From assembly GCA_002369235.1 (NCBI GenBank), contig DFFF01000021.1, forward strand, positions 6,797 through 70,796: DNA of 64,000 nt. The letters run 5' to 3'. This stretch comes from Verrucomicrobia bacterium UBA3783 (GTDB taxonomy: Bacteria > Verrucomicrobiota > Kiritimatiellia > RFP12 > UBA1067). A program made the position numbers and the translations under genes. The notes beneath the pieces are model-generated. The model saw only the letters and a list, made by a program, of their open reading frames with translations, searched no databases and was not told the origin of the DNA. Shown here piece after piece: positions 16,001 through 49,038 of the stretch (position 1 is its first letter; each line of letters begins with the position of its first letter).

Positions 16001-16048
16001 GCGGCTATGCGCTACGCACGACCGCAAAGGCAGGGCTTATCGCTCCGC

Positions 16049-16084
16049 AATCGAAAAATCGATTAATCGAAGAATCGAAAAATC
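16049..16084. repeat. 8-bp microsatellite (AATCGANN) x4.5 containing the 12-bp palindrome TCGATTAATCGA
   Basis: AATCGA recurs at 16049, 16057, 16065 and 16073, with a partial fifth unit (AATC) at 16081. The palindrome spans 16059-16070. Confidence 0.9.
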
Positions 16085-16085
16085 T

Positions 16086-16129
16086 CTCTCCTAGTCCAGC
16101 CTTCTTTCCTTCGTAGTCGAGTCTTCTGG
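16086..16129. repeat. two degenerate copies of the 22-bp repeat
   Basis: TAGTCCAGC at 16092 and TAGTCGAG at 16114 are 22 bp apart. The array ends in CTTCTGGAC, as the 48.8-kb array does. Confidence 0.7.
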
Positions 16130-16177
16130 ACTGCGCAGCAAGCTAAGTTTTGCCAGGCATTTTCCGGAAATTTCATA

Positions 16178-16203
16178 CACAAAACGCGCAAGTGCGTTTT
16201 GTG
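16178..16203. other. perfect 10-bp stem hairpin (ACACAAAACGC-loop-GCGTTTTGTG)
   Basis: I checked the base-pairing by hand. No flanking U-tract is present, so I do not call it a terminator. Confidence 0.6.
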
Positions 16204-16212
16204 GTGAAAGGA

Positions 16213-16249
16213 CAAGGTAAATGCCCATAGTTCATGGGTATTTACCTTG
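16213..16249. other. 16-bp stem / 5-nt loop hairpin
   Basis: CAAGGTAAATGCCCAT-AGTTC-ATGGGTATTTACCTTG forms 15 Watson-Crick pairs plus one G-T pair, checked by hand. Confidence 0.7.
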
Positions 16250-16348
16250 GAGCGGGCATTTGCGTTTGCACGACTAAACGGGCAGGAAACTCCGTCGCCC
16301 CTGCCCACTTTCAGCGCAGCAGAACGGGATGAAAAGTGACAAAAGCCC

Positions 16349-16377
16349 TTGAATAGTGTCAAAAAATATGATATAAT
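16349..16377 (+). promoter_or_regulatory. promoter TTGAAT-N17-TATAAT (TGATATAATAC)
   Basis: It lies immediately upstream of the Panacea-like gene. Confidence 0.6.
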
Positions 16378-16381
16378 ACGC

Positions 16382-16990
16382 ATGAAATATGAGAAAAGGC
16401 TTGAAGAAATGAACTATTTCGACGGCAAAATAGTTGATTTGCTGATGTATTTCACGGCGAATTGTGCACAGGATGTGTGCGACAAGGTGCATCTATTGAA
16501 GTTGATGTATCTTGCTGATCGAGACCATATGCGGGAGTGTGGCCGTCGTATCACAAGCGGAAGTTATCTGGCATACCCGAAAGGGCCTGTTAATAAAAGG
16601 GCATATGAGATTTTGGTAAGTGCCGACAGCGGGCACTGTGACGAACTGCGCGAATACCTAATCGCTCTTGACGATGAAGGACACCATAAGTATATTTCCG
16701 ATAAAGTCGGCTATCGGTACCCACATCTTTCTTTGTCAGATCGTCAATCTGCGGACTGCGCAATCGAAACCATGCTTCAACTTGCAAGCAAAGGAGAGGA
16801 CTTGTCTGAATTTACTCATCACTTCCCAGAGTGGAGTAAAGTTAAAGACAAGATAGACGATGCACACAGGGTTTATCCCGAAATTGACATTGCGGATTTC
16901 TTTGCAGATCCTGACGAGCCTGGGAAAGAATACAGCAAGGCATCTCCGGCGCTTGTTGCGCTCAACAAAGATTCGTTCTTGAATTACTGA
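16382..16990 (+). CDS. Panacea (DUF4065)/SocA-GepA-like putative antitoxin
   Basis: The segment KVHLLKLMYLADRDHMRECGRRITSGSYLAYPKGPVNKRAYEIL fits the DUF4065 pattern (KL.KLLY.AD..hl...G.pit...y.A...GPV...y). The gene is visibly AT-richer than its flanks. The start is ambiguous between ATG 16382 and ATG 16409; the track start 16349 overlaps the promoter. Confidence 0.6.
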   Translation: MKYEKRLEEMNYFDGKIVDLLMYFTANCAQDVCDKVHLLKLMYLADRDHMRECGRRITSGSYLAYPKGPVNKRAYEILVSADSGHCDELREYLIALDDEGHHKYISDKVGYRYPHLSLSDRQSADCAIETMLQLASKGEDLSEFTHHFPEWSKVKDKIDDAHRVYPEIDIADFFADPDEPGKEYSKASPALVALNKDSFLNY

Positions 16991-16999
16991 CGGCTCATC

Positions 17000-17572
17000 G
17001 TGCAGAACAAGATCTCTGGCACATTCGGCGGAGCAGAGCAGGGCGATGTCTTGTATTTTGTCAACGACAACCTCGCTACTACTTATCCTCATTATCACAT
17101 CGTCCTCAATTTGCGTATGAAAAGCGGAGAGGACTTGTATGTTGCAATATGTACTTCCAAAATTGAGAGACTGAAAGAGAAGGCAAAGGCGAAGAAGTAC
17201 GCTGAAGAGACGATTGTTTATATTGAGACGTCGGAATATGCCCAATTCACTAAAAACACGGGCATTGATTGCAACGACGCTCAAGTAGTCCCTGCTGATG
17301 TGCTTGCTGGCAAAAAAGTTTGCCGATACAATAAGTTTCCTCAAACGCTTCTTGATAAGGTTCTTAATGGCGTGTTGCTAAGCGAGAGCGTCGATGAAAA
17401 GATTAAAGCGGCGATATTCGGTGTAGAGTTAGATGAGCTGGGAGAGGTAATGGCACGAAGGTTTGGCGGTAGATTGAAGCGCCTATTGCCGGGAGTTTAC
17501 GACGATGCTATCGAAAAGACGGCATACCTAGCTAGTGCGGGGGGCAGGCCGATTTCAATACACGTGAACTAA
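17000..17572 (+). CDS. uncharacterised protein, candidate toxin partner (possible MazF/ToxN-like fold)
   Basis: It starts with GTG 9 nt after the upstream stop and has the same AT-rich composition. GDVLYF..HYHIVLN..LYVAICTSK..GIDCNDAQVV resembles the beta-strand pattern of the PemK/MazF/ToxN superfamily. This rests on pattern only, not on a search. Confidence 0.45.
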   Translation: MQNKISGTFGGAEQGDVLYFVNDNLATTYPHYHIVLNLRMKSGEDLYVAICTSKIERLKEKAKAKKYAEETIVYIETSEYAQFTKNTGIDCNDAQVVPADVLAGKKVCRYNKFPQTLLDKVLNGVLLSESVDEKIKAAIFGVELDELGEVMARRFGGRLKRLLPGVYDDAIEKTAYLASAGGRPISIHVN

Positions 17573-17696
17573 CCGCTGGGTATTCAAGGGGTTTTCGCCT
17601 CCCCCGAGCGCACCGCCGCCACCATGCAGTTGCGCCTGTTGCATCGTTTCGCTTCCGTCAACCCACTTACTTTTTCACCCAATTTCCAATTCCCCA

Positions 17697-17725
17697 TTGC
17701 ATTTTATCGCGATTTTTAGTATAAT
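17697..17725 (+). promoter_or_regulatory. promoter TTGCAT-N17-TATAAT (GATTTTTAGTATAATAC)
   Basis: The -10 ends 8 nt before the rsfS ATG. Confidence 0.6.
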
Positions 17726-17733
17726 ACACAAAT

Positions 17734-18051
17734 ATGGTAGCAGAAGAGCAGGCAAAGAAAATCGCGGCGGCGCTTGAAGAGCGCAAGGGCGAAGACATCA
17801 AAATCTACGATGTGCGCGGGAAAAGTTCGCTGACGGACTTTTTCGTGGTGGCGACCGGTGCGGCGGCGCCGCACCTGAAGGCGCTTGTCGCCGAAAGCCA
17901 GGCGGCAATGAAGGGCGAGGGCGTGGCGAGCTACCGCACGAGCGGCGACCCGGAAAGCGGCTGGATCGTCGTCGATTACATCGATGTCGTGGTGCATGTG
18001 TTTTCTCCCGAGGCGCGAGCCTATTACGCGCTGGAGAAGCTCTGGGCGTGA
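17734..18051 (+). CDS. rsfS: ribosome silencing factor RsfS (iojap)
   Basis: 105 aa, with LTDFFVVATG and WIVVDYIDVVVHVF, which are typical of RsfS. Confidence 0.9.
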   Translation: MVAEEQAKKIAAALEERKGEDIKIYDVRGKSSLTDFFVVATGAAAPHLKALVAESQAAMKGEGVASYRTSGDPESGWIVVDYIDVVVHVFSPEARAYYALEKLWA

Positions 18052-32734: not shown

Positions 32735-33816
32735 ACTTTGAAGAATTGCGAATCCTTCTTGTGGATAATTTGATGATTCGCAACTACGGTAATTTGCGCA
32801 TGGGTCCGGGGCGCAAATTGATGTGCGGCGCAATCCGCAACAATTGGCGCCTGTGCGAGTTTTCCGATCGCGACATGGCGCGTCTGCTTGCGCCGCTGGC
32901 AATCCGTCCGCTGGGCGGCAAAATCGCCAATAGGCGGCTTGTGCAGTGTGCGAGAAATTTTCGTCCAGATGTCGTGCTCCTCGGTCATTGCGACTATATA
33001 ACGAACGAAACACTCTTTGAAATCAGACGAATCCTGCCCACTGTAAAGATTGCGCATTTCAATGTGGATCCAATTTGGCAGGGACCGACACGGCGGCAAA
33101 TCGAAGATCGCATGGAAAGTTGCGACGGCATATTCGTCACTACTGCCGGCGAGGAACTCAAAACCTGGCTTACTGGCAAAAACTTCATGGCTTACATGCC
33201 CAATCCGTCCGATTCTTCCATGGAGCATGGCGACAACAGCCGCAAGGATGGCTTTGTGCGCGATCTTTTCTTCGCCGGCAATCCTCGCGCCGGAGACCCA
33301 AGATGGGATTTGCTCGCGGAAGTAATGCCCAAGATCAACGACAAATTGCGTGTGGAGTTGTTTGGTTCCGGAAGAATCCCCCGTTCTTCACTGCTGCCGC
33401 AGCCTGATGTGCTTAAACTATCGCCATCGATTTGGGGTGCCAAGTATGAAGAGGTGCTCTCCACTTCCAAAATGTCCCTCAATCTCAATCGCAGGGAAGG
33501 GGACAAGTGGTACTCGTCCGACCGCATCGCCCACCTCATGGGATATGGAATTCTCACCTTTCAATCGGACAAGAACGCCATGGACCGGTTTTTCTCGCCG
33601 GATGAAACAGTCTACTTCTCCGAGGCTGGCGATCTGGTCGATAAAATTCTCTTTTACCAGACGCATGATAACGAGCGCAAGCGCATTGCAGCCGCCGGCC
33701 GCGCCAAGTACCATCGCATCTTTTCAGGCGAGCGCGTCCTCAAGTTTATGATCGAGACACTATACAATATACAGTATACCGAACCCTATGAATGGGCAGA
33801 AGAGGTATACAGGTAG
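32731..33816 (+). CDS. CgeB-like glycosyltransferase family protein (Glyco_trans_1_2/DUF3880-like)
   Basis: The C-terminal pattern SLNLNR..SDRIAHLMGYGILTF..FFSPDETVYFSEAGDLVDKILFY..ERKRIAAAGRAKYHRIFSGERV matches the CgeB family. The start is in an ATGA overlap. Confidence 0.6.
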   Translation: MNFEELRILLVDNLMIRNYGNLRMGPGRKLMCGAIRNNWRLCEFSDRDMARLLAPLAIRPLGGKIANRRLVQCARNFRPDVVLLGHCDYITNETLFEIRRILPTVKIAHFNVDPIWQGPTRRQIEDRMESCDGIFVTTAGEELKTWLTGKNFMAYMPNPSDSSMEHGDNSRKDGFVRDLFFAGNPRAGDPRWDLLAEVMPKINDKLRVELFGSGRIPRSSLLPQPDVLKLSPSIWGAKYEEVLSTSKMSLNLNRREGDKWYSSDRIAHLMGYGILTFQSDKNAMDRFFSPDETVYFSEAGDLVDKILFYQTHDNERKRIAAAGRAKYHRIFSGERVLKFMIETLYNIQYTEPYEWAEEVYR

Positions 33817-33851
33817 TGTATTAGATATAGTGAACTTTTATATTTGGGCTA

Positions 33852-33881
33852 TTGACTTTACCCGCTTAGGTGTGGTATAAT
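33852..33881 (+). promoter_or_regulatory. promoter TTGACT-N18-TATAAT (TGGTATAATAC)
   Basis: It lies upstream of pflB. Confidence 0.65.
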
Positions 33882-33926
33882 ACGTAATATAGATTTCAAA
33901 CAACCGTAATTTGAGGAGACAAGCAA

Positions 33927-36188
33927 ATGAATGCAGTCATTGATGCCAAGGAACAGCCCGCGTGGGCTGGTTTTGTGGGTGGCCGCTGGACGAAGGATGT
34001 TAATGTCAGCGAGTTCATTCGCCTAAACTACACGCCTTATTATGGCGACGCGAGCTTCCTTGCGGATGCTGCACCTTCCACGGATGCGCTTTGGGGCAAG
34101 CTTCAGGAACTCCAGAAGGAGGAGCGCGCGAAGGGCGGCGTTCTCGATATGGACACCGATATCGTCTCTTCCATTACTTCGCATCCCGCAGGCTATCTCG
34201 ACAAGGATCTCGAGAAAATCGTAGGTCTTCAGACCGACAAGCCTTTGAAGCGCGCGTTTATGCCTTACGGCGGCATCAAGATGGCCGAGGAAGCTTGCAC
34301 TACGTATGGCTATACGCCCAGCGAGGAGCTTCACAAAATATTCAATGTCTACCACAAGACGCACAATCAGGCCGTGTTCGATTGCTACACGCCGGAAATG
34401 CGCGCGGCGAGAAAATCGCACATCATCACCGGGCTTCCCGATACCTACGGCCGCGGGCGCATAGTTGGCGACTATCGTCGCGTTGCGCTATACGGTATCG
34501 ACAAGCTGATCGAGGCAAAGGAGTATGACAAACTTCACAGCGGCATGGGTTCGATGGCCGAGGATGTCATCCGCCTGCGCGAAGAAGTCGCCGAGCAGAT
34601 CAAGGCGCTCAAGGCCATGAAGGTTATGGCGGCATCGTATGGCTTTGATATTTCCAAGCCTGCGATGAACGCTCGCGAGGCCGTCCAGTGGACATACTTC
34701 GGCTATCTCTGCGCGATCAAGACGCAGAACGGCGCGGCGATGTCGATCGGCCGCATTTCCACCTTCCTCGATATTTACATCGAGCGCGACCTTAAAAACG
34801 GCACGCTCACCGAGGAGGAGGCCCAGGAGCTTATCGACCATCTCGTGCTGCATTTGCGCATGGTCAAGTTCGCGCGCATTCCGAGCTACAATGAACTCTT
34901 CTCCGGCGATCCCGTTTGGGCTACGCTCTCGATTGGCGGTCTTGGTGCGGACGGTCGCAGCATGGTCACGAAGAATTGCTTCCGCTTCCTGCATACCCTC
35001 GAGACGATGGGGCCTTCGCCGGAACCGAATATGACGGTGCTCTACTCAAGCCGCCTGCCCGAGCCGTTCAAGAAATATGCCGCCAAGGTTTCGATCAATA
35101 CCTCGAGCGTGCAGTACGAGAACGACTGTGTCATGCGTCGCGTCTGGGGCGACGACTACGCAATCTGCTGTTGCGTGTCCGCCACGCAGACCGGCAAGGA
35201 AATGCAGTTCTTCGGCGCCCGCGCCAACCTCGCCAAGTGCCTTCTCTACGCCATCAACGGCGGCAAGGACGAAAAGAGCAAAGTGCAGGTTGCGCCCGAA
35301 TATCCGGCCATTACTGGCGAATACCTCGATTATGACGAGGTGATGAAGCGCTTCGACAACATGATGAGCTGGCTCGCCGGCCTCTATGTGCATATTCTCA
35401 ACCTCATCCACTATATGCACGACAAGTATTACTACGAGGCGGCGGAAATGGCGCTTATCGATACCGACGTGCGCCGCACCTTCGCTACCGGCATCGCCGG
35501 CTTTTCGCATACTGTGGACTCGCTTTGCGCCATCAAGTACAGCAAAGTCAAGGTTATCCGCGATGAAGACGGTATTGCGGTCGGTTATGAGGCGGAAGGC
35601 GACTTCCCGCGCTATGGAAACGACGATCCCCGTGCCGACGATATTGCCGAATGGCTGCTCACCGAATTCCTCGCGAAGGTCAAGAGCCATCACACCTACC
35701 GCAACGCCGAGCCTACCACCTCGATCCTCACGATCACATCCAATGTCGTCTACGGCAAGGCTACCGGCTCTACGCCGGACGGACGCGAGGGCGGCATGCC
35801 GTTCGCGCCCGGTGCGAATCCCAGCTATGGTGCGGAAAAGAGCGGGCTTCTCGCTTCGCTCAATTCGGTCGCCAAGCTCCCCTACGAGTATGCGCTCGAC
35901 GGCATTTCCAATACCCAGACGATTCATCCTTCGGCTCTCGGCAATACGCTTGAGGACCGTGTGAATACGCTCGTCTCGGTAATGGATGGCTACTTCAACA
36001 AGGGTGCGCATCATCTGAATGTGAATGTTTTCGGCACCGAGAAGCTTATCGATTGCATGGAGCATCCCGAAAAGCCGGAATATGCGAACTTTACCATCCG
36101 TGTCTCCGGCTATGCGGTCAAATTCATCGACCTCACCCGCGAACAGCAGATGGATGTGATTCGGCGCACATGCCACAAGAGCCTCTAA
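33927..36188 (+). CDS. pflB: pyruvate formate-lyase (formate C-acetyltransferase)
   Basis: 753 aa, with the catalytic Cys pair in ICCCVSAT and the glycyl-radical motif RVSGYAVKF near the C-terminus. Confidence 0.95.
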
Positions 36189-37806: not shown

Positions 37807-37982
37807 CATCCCTAGTTTAGCATCCTTGACTTCGTAGTCCAGCCCTCTCGACTTCGTAGTCCAGCATTCTCGACTTCGTAGTCCAGCATTCTTTACTTCG
37901 TAGTCCAGCATTCTTTACTTCGTAGTCCAGCCCTCTTTACTTCGTAGTCCAGCAGTCTTTACTTCGTAGTCCGTTTTCTGTC
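37807..37982. repeat. tandem array of a 22-bp repeat, 7 good copies plus 1 degenerate (core ACTTCGTAGTCCAGC)
   Basis: The core starts at 37829, 37851, 37873, 37895, 37917, 37939 and 37961, an exact 22-bp period. A degenerate copy lies at 37807-37828. The array sits in the divergent dus / rpiB-glyA intergenic region. Confidence 0.95.
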
Positions 37983-38032: not shown

Positions 38033-38062
38033 TTGAAAAAACAAGCAGATTTTTGATATAAT
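38033..38062 (+). promoter_or_regulatory. promoter TTGAAA-N18-TATAAT (GATTTTTGATATAAT)
   Basis: The -10 ends 9 nt before the rpiB-glyA ATG. Confidence 0.6.
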
Positions 38063-48781: not shown

Positions 48782-48869
48782 ACTGCCAAGTCCAGCCCTC
48801 TCCACTTCGTAGTCCAGCCTCCTCGACTTCGTAGTCCAGCCTCTTTTACTTGGTAGTCCAGCCTTCTGG
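48782..48869. repeat. tandem array of the same 22-bp repeat, 4 copies
   Basis: Units start at 48782, 48804, 48826 and 48848. The array lies between the mnmA stop and the tRNA-Ala promoter. Confidence 0.9.
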
Positions 48870-48962: not shown

Positions 48963-49038
48963 GGGGAAGTAGCTCAGTTGGTAGAGCATCACGTTCGCAA
49001 CGTGGGGGTCGTGAGTTCGAATCTCATCTTCTCCACCA
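48963..49038 (+). tRNA. tRNA-Ala (anticodon CGC), CCA encoded
   Basis: Folded by hand into a 76-nt cloverleaf: acceptor GGGGAAG/CTTCTCC with the G3:U70 alanine identity pair, anticodon loop TTCGCAA, T-loop TTCGAAT, discriminator A, and 3' CCA. Confidence 0.9.

What the first reader, a model, noticed from the sequence alone, without database searches (positions are those of the whole stretch)
16001..17733. AT-rich two-gene islet between priA and rsfS: Panacea/DUF4065-like antitoxin plus an uncharacterised MazF/ToxN-like partner
This is the only clearly accessory stretch in the window. Base composition drops visibly, by eye from above 60% to the mid-40s % GC, exactly between the priA stop (16000) and the rsfS promoter (17697).

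Two genes sit under their own consensus promoter (16349-16377) and are separated by 9 nt.
- Gene 1 carries the DUF4065/Panacea pattern (KLMYLADRDHM...RITSGSYLAYPKGPV). Panacea domains are known as promiscuous antitoxin domains that pair with many unrelated toxin families (PanAT systems).
- Gene 2 (190 aa, GTG start) matches no family I recognise. Its strand pattern GDVLYF / HYHIVLN / LYVAICTSK / GIDCNDAQVV resembles the CcdB/MazF/ToxN barrel, and a helical C-terminal extension follows it.

The pair is therefore a candidate new PanA-toxin (or abortive-infection-like) module. The islet has no integrase. Its left side is bordered by unusual repeats and hairpins.
Basis: partly seen in the sequence, partly recalled or inferred. 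Interest (0 to 1): 0.72.

Follow-up and report, generated by a model that had tools for sequence, protein, structure and literature searches.

The report
Panacea antitoxin with MazF-fold toxin
A small, horizontally acquired two-gene toxin-antitoxin cassette in a gut Kiritimatiellia bacterium pairs a Panacea-domain antitoxin with a highly diverged MazF-type toxin, probably an RNA-cutting enzyme; it is a new example of an already described kind of system, not a new kind.

Summary
Window 16001-17733 is the lowest-GC stretch of the window (GC 0.43-0.48 against about 0.60; GC3 0.47-0.50 against 0.71-0.77). It carries two co-oriented genes 9 nt apart behind a near-consensus promoter.

- **Gene 1** (16409-16990) is a Panacea/PanA protein (PF13274, 54.8 bits).
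- **Gene 2** (17000-17572) hits no curated family but is not an orphan. Exhaustive HMMER finds 214 relatives.
- An alignment-based AlphaFold model (pLDDT 91) matches only MazF/EndoA/PemK structures among its top 50 PDB hits.
- In 56 of 56 loci tested, the gene immediately upstream is a Panacea protein.
- One member lies in the temperate phage Marinitoga camini virus 1.
- The family keeps MazF's catalytic Thr/Ser. It has an invariant His where hhalign places MazF's catalytic Arg, plus an invariant Cys-Asn.
- The window protein and four relatives add a helical tail of about 50 residues.

The pair is absent from 160 related priA and rsfS loci, so it is accessory. However, it sits at a synteny breakpoint, not in a conserved priA-rsfS junction.

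Kurata et al. 2022 already catalogued, and partly validated, PanA with HHpred-only MazF-like toxins. I rate this a new member of a known kind. Toxicity and neutralisation are untested.

The parts
16049..16084 (.). 8-nt periodic tandem array AATCGAAN, 4.5 copies, in the spacer downstream of priA. Function unknown, and not shown to belong to the module.
   Evidence: TRF period 8, score 51. 3 pattern matches against 0.26 expected. No stable fold, z = 0.12.
16092..16118 (.). Single copy of a 22-nt repeat that forms arrays elsewhere in the window (37819-37972 and 48789-48867). Suggests this part of the flank is native intergenic DNA.
   Evidence: blastn 92.6% over 27 nt to the array copies. Arrays found by TRF.
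16171..16249 (+). Twin stem-loops (10-bp perfect stem at 16178-16203 inside a longer helix; 16-bp stem at 16213-16249). Likely a priA terminator or insulator ahead of the cassette.
   Evidence: MFE -43.2 kcal/mol, z = -7.35, 0 of 200 shuffles as stable. Inverted repeats I1 and I8. Metagenome contigs of the same species end at 16242 and 16281.
16349..16377 (+). Sigma-70-type promoter of the cassette: TTGAAT, 17 nt, TG-extended TATAAT.
   Evidence: 10 of 12 consensus matches with TG. The same extended -10 string recurs upstream of genes, including rsfS, in related genomes. Flanked by three imperfect 17-nt direct repeats at 16329, 16349 and 16382.
16409..16990 (+). panA: standalone Panacea-domain antitoxin, 193 aa. 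Panacea domain at residues 29-142, plus a C-terminal tail of about 50 residues conserved among partners of this toxin family.
   Evidence: PF13274 54.9 bits, E 2e-14. Called with this start on L001 and L002. Alignment A3 of 56 partners has invariant G59, V61, S108, H137, E141, W142.
17000..17572 (+). panT: 190-aa toxin candidate with GTG start. Residues about 13-139 form a MazF/PemK-fold core, and residues about 140-190 form a subclade-specific helical extension.
   Evidence: 214 relatives found by exhaustive phmmer. AF2 pLDDT 91.4, pTM 0.86. Foldseek top 50 PDB hits are all MazF family, TM 0.64-0.74. Invariant H31 and C91. The conserved G15 lies upstream of the TTG used by the automatic gene call, so the GTG at 17000 is the start.
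17417..17569 (+). C-terminal extension of panT (residues 140-190, 3-4 helices), shared only with P0002-P0005. Conserved motif RFG.KLK..LP..Y.
   Evidence: Most relatives end near query residue 139. Alignment A6 has invariant F155, G156, P164. Helices H144-155, H157-162, H164-179 in the model.
17700..17712 (.). Right-hand breakpoint. Homology to the nearest other species (L003, about 91% nt) starts here, just upstream of the rsfS -10 box.
   Evidence: blastn match starts at 17702. Pairwise alignment becomes collinear from GATTTTT.GTATAAT.

Best explanation
This is a self-contained, horizontally acquired type II PanAT toxin-antitoxin cassette.

Both genes are transcribed from one promoter (16349-16377). 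The first gene encodes a standalone Panacea-domain antitoxin (PanA). The second encodes a toxin (PanT) whose core is a strongly diverged MazF/PemK-fold domain.

The toxin most likely works as a sequence-specific endoribonuclease that blocks translation. PanA most likely neutralises it by direct binding. Possibly PanA's conserved C-terminal tail of about 50 residues occupies the toxin's substrate groove.

The family keeps MazF's catalytic hydroxyl residue (T/S52). It has an invariant His where MazF has its catalytic Arg, and an invariant Cys-Asn on the strand that binds RNA in MazF.

Shown: domain identity of PanA; the MazF fold (as a confident prediction); strict PanA-toxin gene linkage across phyla; compositional foreignness; absence from relatives.

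Inferred: toxicity; RNase chemistry; the neutralisation mode; the role of the C-terminal extension.
For: - PanA is PF13274 at 54.8 bits.
- Gene 2 has 214 relatives at E <= 1e-3, mostly about 145 aa and covering query residues 13-139.
- The alignment-based AF2 model has pLDDT 91.4 and pTM 0.86.
- Foldseek against the PDB: the top 50 hits are all MazF, EndoA, MoxT or M. tuberculosis MazFs, E down to 7.5e-5, target-normalised TM 0.64-0.74.
- Foldseek against BFVD: PemK-like phage proteins.
- 5 of 100 relatives give weak PF02452 hits.
- hhalign of the family profile against B. subtilis EndoA: 103 columns, E 3.2e-5, probability 73%. It puts H31 on R25 and T52-S53-K54 on T48-A49-Q50. The same register is obtained against a small MazF/Kid profile.
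- Conservation in 100 sequences: H31 100, C91 100, S128 98, N92 96, T/S52 98, S/T53 98.
- Gene linkage: the upstream same-strand ORF is a Panacea protein in 56 of 56 loci from many phyla. The same holds around P0002, P0009, P0102 and P0104 and in Marinitoga camini virus 1.
- No third conserved neighbour.
- Accessory nature: GC and GC3 contrast, and absence from 80 rsfS and 80 priA loci of relatives.
- Literature: PanA with HHpred-only MazF-like PanTs inhibit translation and are neutralised by complex formation (PMC8832971). A standalone Panacea neutralises directly (PMC10440598).
Against: - No experiment exists on this pair or, as far as I could establish, on any member of this sequence family.
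- In Kurata et al., one MazF-like PanT (T8, Flavobacterium xanthum) was not toxic, and one (T5, Chryseobacterium bovis) was toxic but not neutralised in E. coli. Fold plus PanA linkage therefore does not guarantee a working TA pair.
- The protein fails Pfam PF02452. The family profile finds no MazF among PDB sequences.
- The His-for-Arg mapping rests on hhalign with modest statistics (probability 73% and 6%). E. coli MazF alone does not align significantly.
- The canonical catalytic Arg is missing, so the chemistry could differ from MazF's.
- No Shine-Dalgarno sequence is evident before the GTG of gene 2.
- The fold is a prediction, not a solved structure.
Confidence: 0.7

Rival explanations
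1. The pair is primarily an anti-phage abortive-infection or superinfection-exclusion system. PanA would act as a sensor that releases or activates the MazF-fold effector when a phage cue appears. This concerns biological role and is compatible with the TA mechanics above.
For: - A family member with its PanA sits in the temperate phage Marinitoga camini virus 1.
- P0009's pair lies next to an integrase and a tape-measure gene.
- Other members neighbour AbiEii and Fic, Eco57I-type RM, type I RM subunits, integrases and a Cas1.
- PMC10440598 proposes a sensor role for Panacea.
Against: - PADLOC models give no hit for either protein.
- Most neighbours across 100 flanking ORFs are ordinary housekeeping genes, with no consistent defence-island signal.
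- In this window the flanks are priA and rsfS.
- No phage trigger is known for any PanAT pair with a MazF-like toxin.
Confidence: 0.3
2. Gene 2 keeps the MazF/CcdB-type barrel but is not an RNase. It might poison another target (a CcdB-like gyrase poison) or use its invariant His/Cys for a different chemistry.
For: - The canonical catalytic Arg is absent and an invariant Cys appears.
- No PF02452 membership.
- The fold is shared by CcdB, which is not a nuclease (established knowledge; CcdB also appears in the HHpred lists for PanT clusters).
Against: - All 50 best structural matches are MazF-type RNases and none is CcdB.
- The conserved polar residues map onto MazF's catalytic and RNA-binding positions.
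- The two tested MazF-like PanTs inhibit translation.
Confidence: 0.1
3. The cassette is an inactive or decaying remnant, with a non-toxic protein or a non-functional pair, carried passively.
For: Some PanA-linked MazF-like proteins were non-toxic in E. coli (T8). Gene 2 has a GTG start with no clear ribosome-binding site.
Against: - Both ORFs are intact.
- All family-invariant residues are present in the window protein.
- The genes are 99-100% conserved in two independent metagenomes.
- The promoter is near consensus.
Confidence: 0.08
4. A SocAB-like type VI system, in which PanA is a proteolytic adaptor that delivers the toxin to ClpXP instead of sequestering it.
For: The Panacea domain is the SocA domain (Pfam name SocA_Panacea). 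There is a weak hit to NCBIfam SocA_antitoxin.
Against: - The SocA equivalog score is 20.2 bits against a cutoff of 190.
- The partner is MazF-fold, not SocB.
- The PanAs tested formed complexes with their toxins.
Confidence: 0.04
5. A ToxN/AbiQ-type (type III) toxin neutralised by an RNA repeat antitoxin.
For: ToxN shares the Kid/MazF-like fold (established knowledge). A short tandem array exists at 16049-16084.
Against: - The array has an 8-nt period, lies about 950 nt upstream of gene 2 and outside the operon, and does not fold.
- No ToxI-like Rfam hit.
- The invariably linked partner is a protein, PanA.
- The structural hits are MazF.
Confidence: 0.01

Closest known systems
PanAT systems with MazF-like PanT toxins (Kurata et al. 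2022, PNAS; clusters T5, T6, T8, T25, T29, T30; validated pairs from Pseudomonas moraviensis and Bifidobacterium ruminantium)
   Same: Antitoxin-first bicistron. Standalone Panacea antitoxin with no extra N-terminal domain. The toxin is annotated as hypothetical, has no or weak CDD/Pfam hits, and has a MazF/EndoA/PemK fold. Patchy, mobile distribution, including phages.
   Different: I could not show that this sequence family is one of the listed clusters. T29, with Marinitoga and a verrucomicrobium, is the best candidate, but its sequences were not retrievable. The window protein carries an extra C-terminal helical domain of about 50 residues, seen in only four relatives. No member of this family has been tested.
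Canonical MazF/EndoA/PemK/Kid endoribonucleases (PF02452) with MazE/PemI antitoxins
   Same: Predicted fold (TM 0.64-0.74). N-terminal G-D/S-V motif. A T-[SA]-Q motif carrying the catalytic Thr. Overall strand order and a C-terminal helix.
   Different: Fails the Pfam model. The catalytic Arg is replaced by an invariant His. An invariant Cys-Asn lies on the RNA-binding strand. The core is longer (about 127 aa, against about 110). The antitoxin is a Panacea protein, not an AbrB- or RHH-type MazE/PemI.
SocAB (type VI TA of Caulobacter)
   Same: The antitoxin shares the Panacea/SocA domain.
   Different: Not a SocA equivalog (20 bits against a cutoff of 190). The toxin is unrelated to SocB. An adaptor-for-proteolysis mechanism is not indicated.
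ToxIN/AbiQ type III systems and CcdAB
   Same: The toxins share the same broad barrel superfold.
   Different: No RNA-repeat antitoxin and no CcdA. The structural neighbours are MazF, not ToxN or CcdB.

Membership tests
PanAT (Panacea-antitoxin toxin-antitoxin systems) | Antitoxin carries the Panacea domain (PF13274/DUF4065) above the curated threshold | tested here: met
   54.8 bits against a cutoff of 25.7, covering profile positions 1-112 of 113.
PanAT (Panacea-antitoxin toxin-antitoxin systems) | Conserved two-gene, same-strand, closely spaced arrangement with the partner, recurring across unrelated taxa | tested here: met
   The upstream same-strand ORF is a Panacea protein in 56 of 56 loci spanning Verrucomicrobiota, Kiritimatiellota, Patescibacteria, Dehalococcoidia, Desulfobacterota and others. 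9-nt spacer here.
PanAT (Panacea-antitoxin toxin-antitoxin systems) | Partner is toxic and is neutralised by the PanA protein | not testable with these tools
   Needs expression and rescue assays.
MazF/PemK endoribonuclease family (PF02452) | Sequence match to the family model above threshold | tested here: not met
   No PF02452 hit for the window protein even at E <= 1. 5 of 100 relatives hit weakly, best E 2.3e-4. The family profile finds no MazF among PDB sequences.
MazF/PemK endoribonuclease family (PF02452) | MazF/Kid-type beta-barrel fold | tested here: met
   AF2 pLDDT 91.4. The top 50 Foldseek PDB hits are all MazF family, probability 1.00, TM 0.64-0.74. This is a prediction, not a solved structure.
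MazF/PemK endoribonuclease family (PF02452) | Catalytic Arg at the start of strand 2 (R25 in B. subtilis MazF, R29 in E. coli MazF) | tested here: not met
   hhalign places the invariant H31 at R25. H is present in 100 of 100 sequences. The register has only moderate statistical support.
MazF/PemK endoribonuclease family (PF02452) | Catalytic Thr/Ser (T48 in B. subtilis, T52 in E. coli) in a T-x-Q motif | tested here: met
   T52 aligns to T48 of EndoA and to T52 of E. coli MazF. T or S is present in 98 of 100 sequences.
MazF/PemK endoribonuclease family (PF02452) | Cognate MazE/PemI-type (AbrB or RHH) antitoxin | tested here: not met
   The partner is a Panacea protein.
MazF/PemK endoribonuclease family (PF02452) | Homodimer with ribosome-independent RNA cleavage | not testable with these tools
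   No multimer prediction was available, and biochemistry is needed.
Kurata et al. 2022 PanT cluster T29 (or T5/T6) | Sequence similarity to the listed cluster members (e.g. WP_129409311.1, WP_043586204.1) | not testable with these tools
   The sequences were not retrievable. A scan with the Marinitoga phage homologue found no genome locus. The accessions of members I found are absent from the stored, truncated datasets.
ToxIN/AbiQ type III TA | Tandem RNA repeats (about 36 nt) immediately upstream of the toxin, acting as antitoxin | tested here: not met
   The only array is an 8-nt repeat of 4.5 copies at 16049-16084, outside the operon and unstructured. No Rfam hit.
SocAB type VI TA | SocA equivalog antitoxin (NF047745) with a SocB toxin | tested here: not met
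   20.2 bits against a cutoff of 190. The partner has a MazF fold.

The most novel reading that the evidence does not exclude
The PanA-linked family represented by gene 2 is a distinct branch of the MazF superfold that has swapped the Arg/Thr catalytic pair for an invariant His plus Thr/Ser, with an invariant Cys-Asn in the substrate groove. It would therefore have a chemistry or RNA target unlike known MazFs. It would be deployed as a Panacea-sensed anti-phage effector, mainly in Verrucomicrobiota, Kiritimatiellota and candidate-phyla bacteria, and the subclade-specific C-terminal helical domain would add a further regulatory or targeting function.
Probability: 0.15. Interest if true: 0.55.

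Novelty: new member of a known kind. Interest (0 to 1): 0.33.

Why it matters
The main value is annotation. A family of at least 214 clusters at 50% identity is labelled "hypothetical protein" wherever it is named and is invisible to Pfam, NCBIfam, PADLOC and PHROGs. It can now be read as a MazF-fold PanT toxin that is strictly linked to Panacea antitoxins.

The family is common in poorly studied lineages (Verrucomicrobiota, Kiritimatiellota, Patescibacteria, Dehalococcoidia) and is present on a cultured temperate phage. The apparent His-for-Arg replacement at the catalytic position gives a simple, testable question about how far MazF chemistry can drift.

For this genome it marks a recent horizontal acquisition at a rearrangement-prone junction. 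It does not open a new category of system.

Tried and rejected
- **Word-indexed protein search with gene 2** and again with the family alignment. These returned almost nothing. Only the exhaustive search revealed the family.
- **Single-sequence AF2 model.** Unusable at pLDDT 46.
- **phmmer and hmmsearch against PDB sequences.** No MazF found.
- **The search for related loci.** With gene 2 it found nothing. I replaced it with a degenerate-motif DNA scan.
- **Last protein search, spent on EndoA to build a MazF profile.** It returned only near-identical orthologues and added no diversity. The small PDB-derived profile gave weak statistics, and E. coli MazF alone did not align.
- **Attempts to tie the family to Kurata cluster T29.** I tried a genome scan with the Marinitoga phage homologue and accession look-ups in the supplements. 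All failed.
- **Plasmid search.** No match. The five viral-contig motif hits were all chance matches.
- **Rfam.** Nothing credible in the region.
- **Model coordinates.** Not exposed, so spatial clustering of H31, T52, S53, C91 and N92 could not be measured.
- **Rejected on evidence:** the ToxN/type III, SocAB and orphan-gene readings, and the idea of a clean insertion into a conserved priA-rsfS junction.
Full report
**What is there**

The window comes from a gut or rumen member of the Kiritimatiellia. RsfS and PriA relatives are almost all Kiritimatiellia, Verrucomicrobia or Lentisphaerae MAGs from ruminant and human gut.

Between the priA stop (16000; PriA domains confirmed) and rsfS (17734-18051; PF02410) lies about 1.7 kb of foreign composition.
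- GC is 0.43-0.48, against about 0.60 in the flanks.
- It includes the lowest-GC kilobase of the window.
- Third-position GC is 0.47 and 0.50 for the two genes, against 0.71-0.77 for priA, rsfS, the tRNA-methyltransferase-like gene and miaB.

A TG-extended near-consensus promoter (TTGAAT-17-TATAAT, 16349-16377) precedes two co-oriented ORFs. Gene 1 runs 16409-16990 (193 aa from the ATG that two independent gene calls also used). Gene 2 runs 17000-17572 (190 aa, GTG). They are separated by 9 nt.

**Gene 1**

Gene 1 is a standalone Panacea-domain protein: PF13274 at 54.8 bits against a cutoff of 25.7, covering the whole model. It is not a SocA equivalog (20 bits against 190). It has no defence-system model hit.

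**Gene 2**

No Pfam, NCBIfam, PADLOC or PHROG family matches gene 2. The word-indexed search of 5.8 billion proteins found only a 99%-identical copy, so it looked like an orphan.

The exhaustive HMMER search changed that. It found 214 representatives at E <= 1e-3, most of them about 145 aa and aligned to query residues 13-139. Their alignment (A1, 100 sequences) has this consensus: G.VYYF..S..PHYFIVLN...TSQ.EK...P..TLV...Y..F.K.T..DCN...GV..S..V...IK.

Conservation across the 100 sequences:

| Residue | Count of 100 |
|---|---|
| H31 | 100 |
| C91 | 100 |
| S128 | 98 |
| T/S52 | 98 |
| S/T53 | 98 |
| N92 | 96 |
| G15 | 95 |

With this alignment, AlphaFold2 gives a confident model (pLDDT 91.4, pTM 0.86). 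The single-sequence model was useless (pLDDT 46).

Foldseek against the PDB returns only MazF-family endoribonucleases among its best 50 hits: B. subtilis MazF/EndoA/YdcE, B. anthracis MoxT, S. aureus MazF, M. tuberculosis MazF-mt1/3/9 and E. coli MazF. E-values go down to 7.5e-5, with target-normalised TM of 0.64-0.74. The viral library returns PemK-like phage proteins. Five of 100 relatives also touch PF02452 weakly.

ToxN and CcdB are not the nearest structures.

**Active-site reading (inference)**

hhalign of the family profile against the PDB-verified B. subtilis EndoA sequence aligns 103 columns (E 3.2e-5, probability 73%). The equivalences are:

| Family | EndoA |
|---|---|
| QGDV | RGDV |
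| H31 | R25 |
| T52-S53-K/Q54 | T48-A49-Q50 |
| T71.V73 | T58.V60 |
| C91-N92 | L77-E78 |

The same register comes out against a small MazF/Kid profile, though with weak statistics (E 0.006). The only segment aligned to E. coli MazF also puts T52 on T52.

From established knowledge of MazF, R25/T48 (B. subtilis) and R29/T52 (E. coli) are the catalytic pair, and the E78-Q79 strand contacts RNA. On that basis the family keeps the hydroxyl residue, replaces the Arg by an invariant His, and fixes Cys-Asn in the groove. This fits an RNase with altered catalytic residues, but it is not demonstrated. I could not measure residue proximity because model coordinates are not exposed.

**Start codon**

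Public gene calls start at the TTG at 17051 (173 aa). That start removes the conserved G15-D-V of the first strand. GTG 17000 is the only in-frame start upstream, so the 190-aa form is right.

**C-terminal extension**

Residues 140-190 form three to four helices, modelled at pLDDT above 90 up to about residue 170. Only P0002-P0005 share them, with conserved RFG.KLK..LP..Y. The function of the extension is unknown.

**Linkage to Panacea**

- The genes around P0002, P0009, P0102 and P0104 all show a Panacea gene directly upstream.
Of these, 53 hold true family members by HMM.
- Every one with room upstream has a same-strand ORF of about 200 aa abutting it.
- All 56 such ORFs tested are PF13274 proteins.
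- These PanAs share a conserved C-terminal tail beyond the Panacea domain.
- The closest pair (L163) is 46% identical in the toxin and 50% in PanA, so the two genes appear to have diverged together.
- No third gene is conserved. Neighbours are heterogeneous, with a scattering of type I restriction-modification subunits, integrases, Fic, HTH proteins and one Cas1 among many housekeeping genes.
- One member with its PanA (UF08_38 and UF08_39) lies in the temperate phage Marinitoga camini virus 1. No match was found on plasmids.
- Wherever public sources name these proteins, they are called "hypothetical protein".

**Is it an insertion?**

The pair is accessory.
- It is present, at 99-100% nucleotide identity, only on two metagenome contigs of the same species.
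- It is absent from 80 rsfS loci and 80 priA loci of relatives.
- The closest other species (L003, about 91% nucleotide identity) matches the window only from about 17702-17712 onward, just upstream of the rsfS -10 box. Upstream it carries a different 381-aa gene.

However, no relative has priA next to rsfS at all. The cassette therefore sits at a synteny breakpoint, not inside a conserved junction, and the left boundary cannot be fixed.

The left flank holds three features.
- An 8-nt periodic AATCGAAN array (16049-16084).
- One copy of a 22-nt repeat that forms arrays elsewhere in the window, which suggests native intergenic DNA up to at least about 16120.
- A very stable twin hairpin (16171-16249; -43.2 kcal/mol, z = -7.35).

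The two metagenome contigs end at 16242 and 16281, which hints that the variable junction lies there. No tRNA or integrase is adjacent.

**How it most likely works**

The cassette is a type II PanAT module. PanA and the toxin are co-transcribed. PanA binds and neutralises the MazF-fold toxin. Free toxin cleaves RNA and arrests translation.

This rests on the fold, the conserved groove residues and the strict gene linkage. It also rests on published work. PanA antitoxins form complexes with their toxins, and two MazF-like PanTs without CDD hits (P. moraviensis, cluster T6; B. ruminantium, cluster T25) specifically inhibit protein synthesis (PMC8832971). A standalone Panacea domain neutralises its toxin directly and may also act as a sensor (PMC10440598).

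A defence or prophage-exclusion role is plausible but unsupported here.

**Comparison with what is known, and novelty**

Kurata et al. list six PanT clusters with MazF-like predictions. The table summarises what was read.

| Cluster | How MazF-like was assigned | Test result |
|---|---|---|
| T5 | HHpred only | toxic, not neutralised |
| T6 | HHpred only | validated |
| T8 | labelled MazF in the paper's test table | not toxic |
| T25 | partly CDD | validated |
| T29 | HHpred only | untested |
| T30 | CDD PemK | untested |

T29 contains Marinitoga lauensis and a verrucomicrobium, and may well be this family. I could not obtain those sequences to test it.

Whichever cluster it belongs to, "Panacea antitoxin plus cryptic MazF-fold toxin" is an established kind. 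This locus is a new member, from a phylum not seen in the parts of that dataset available here. It carries a subclade-specific C-terminal domain and an apparent His-for-Arg catalytic substitution that may or may not be shared with the published clusters.

Interest is modest. The result is a sound annotation of an uncurated family and a testable enzymology question, not a surprise.

Noticed in passing
window 37819-37972 and 48789-48867 (single copy at 16092-16118): A 22-nt tandem repeat family (consensus about AGTCCAGC[AC][TC]TCT[TC][TG]ACTTCGT) forms arrays of 7 and 3.6 copies in intergenic DNA. One array lies just upstream of a consensus promoter at about 38034-38062, and the other about 100 nt upstream of tRNA-Ala (48963-49038). 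Function unknown.
   Followed up: partly
window 16988-17002: Gene 1 and gene 2 are in the same reading frame, separated only by TGA CGG CTC ATC before the GTG. Read-through of the TGA would give a PanA-toxin fusion. Spacing varies in other loci, so this is probably coincidence.
   Followed up: no
window 17000-17051; P0001 on L001 and L002: Automatic gene calls in public assemblies start gene 2 at the TTG at 17051 (173 aa). That cuts off the conserved G15-D-V first strand. The GTG at 17000 is the likely true start.
   Followed up: yes
L004, L005, L020, L023, L027, L034, L050, L106, L130, L131, L140, L147, L159: Genome records titled as Azospirillum, Lachnospira hominis, Gemmiger, Faecalibacterium, Barnesiella, Limosilactobacillus gorillae, Alistipes, Clostridium, Lachnospiraceae and even a Methanomethylophilaceae archaeon carry RsfS or PriA genes 57-88% identical to this Kiritimatiellia window. 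These 'cleanbin' MAG records look mislabelled or contaminated.
   Followed up: no
L298 (KP836355.1 28057-29155): Marinitoga camini virus 1 genes UF08_38 and UF08_39, both annotated hypothetical, are a Panacea antitoxin (71.8 bits) and a member of this MazF-fold family (HMM E 4e-35), overlapping by 8 nt.
   Followed up: yes
L172 3700-4729: In one metagenome contig the family gene is called as a 242-aa protein overlapping a truncated 112-aa Panacea gene. This could be a frameshift, an assembly error or a genuine PanA-toxin fusion.
   Followed up: no
L003 46-1191: In the closest other species, the gene upstream of rsfS is a 381-aa protein that looks ankyrin-repeat-like by eye, not priA or the cassette. 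What lies upstream of rsfS differs between relatives: none of the 80 rsfS loci has priA there, and only a few share any detectable gene with the window.
   Followed up: partly
window 16329-16398: Three imperfect 17-nt direct repeats (ATGAAAAGTGACAAAAG, TTGAATAGTGTCAAAAA, ATGAAATATGAGAAAAG) overlap the -35 box and the 5' leader of panA. They are a possible operator for autoregulation, although this PanA has no recognisable DNA-binding domain.
   Followed up: no
window 33001-34000: Second-lowest GC kilobase of the window (0.498). Not examined.
   Followed up: no
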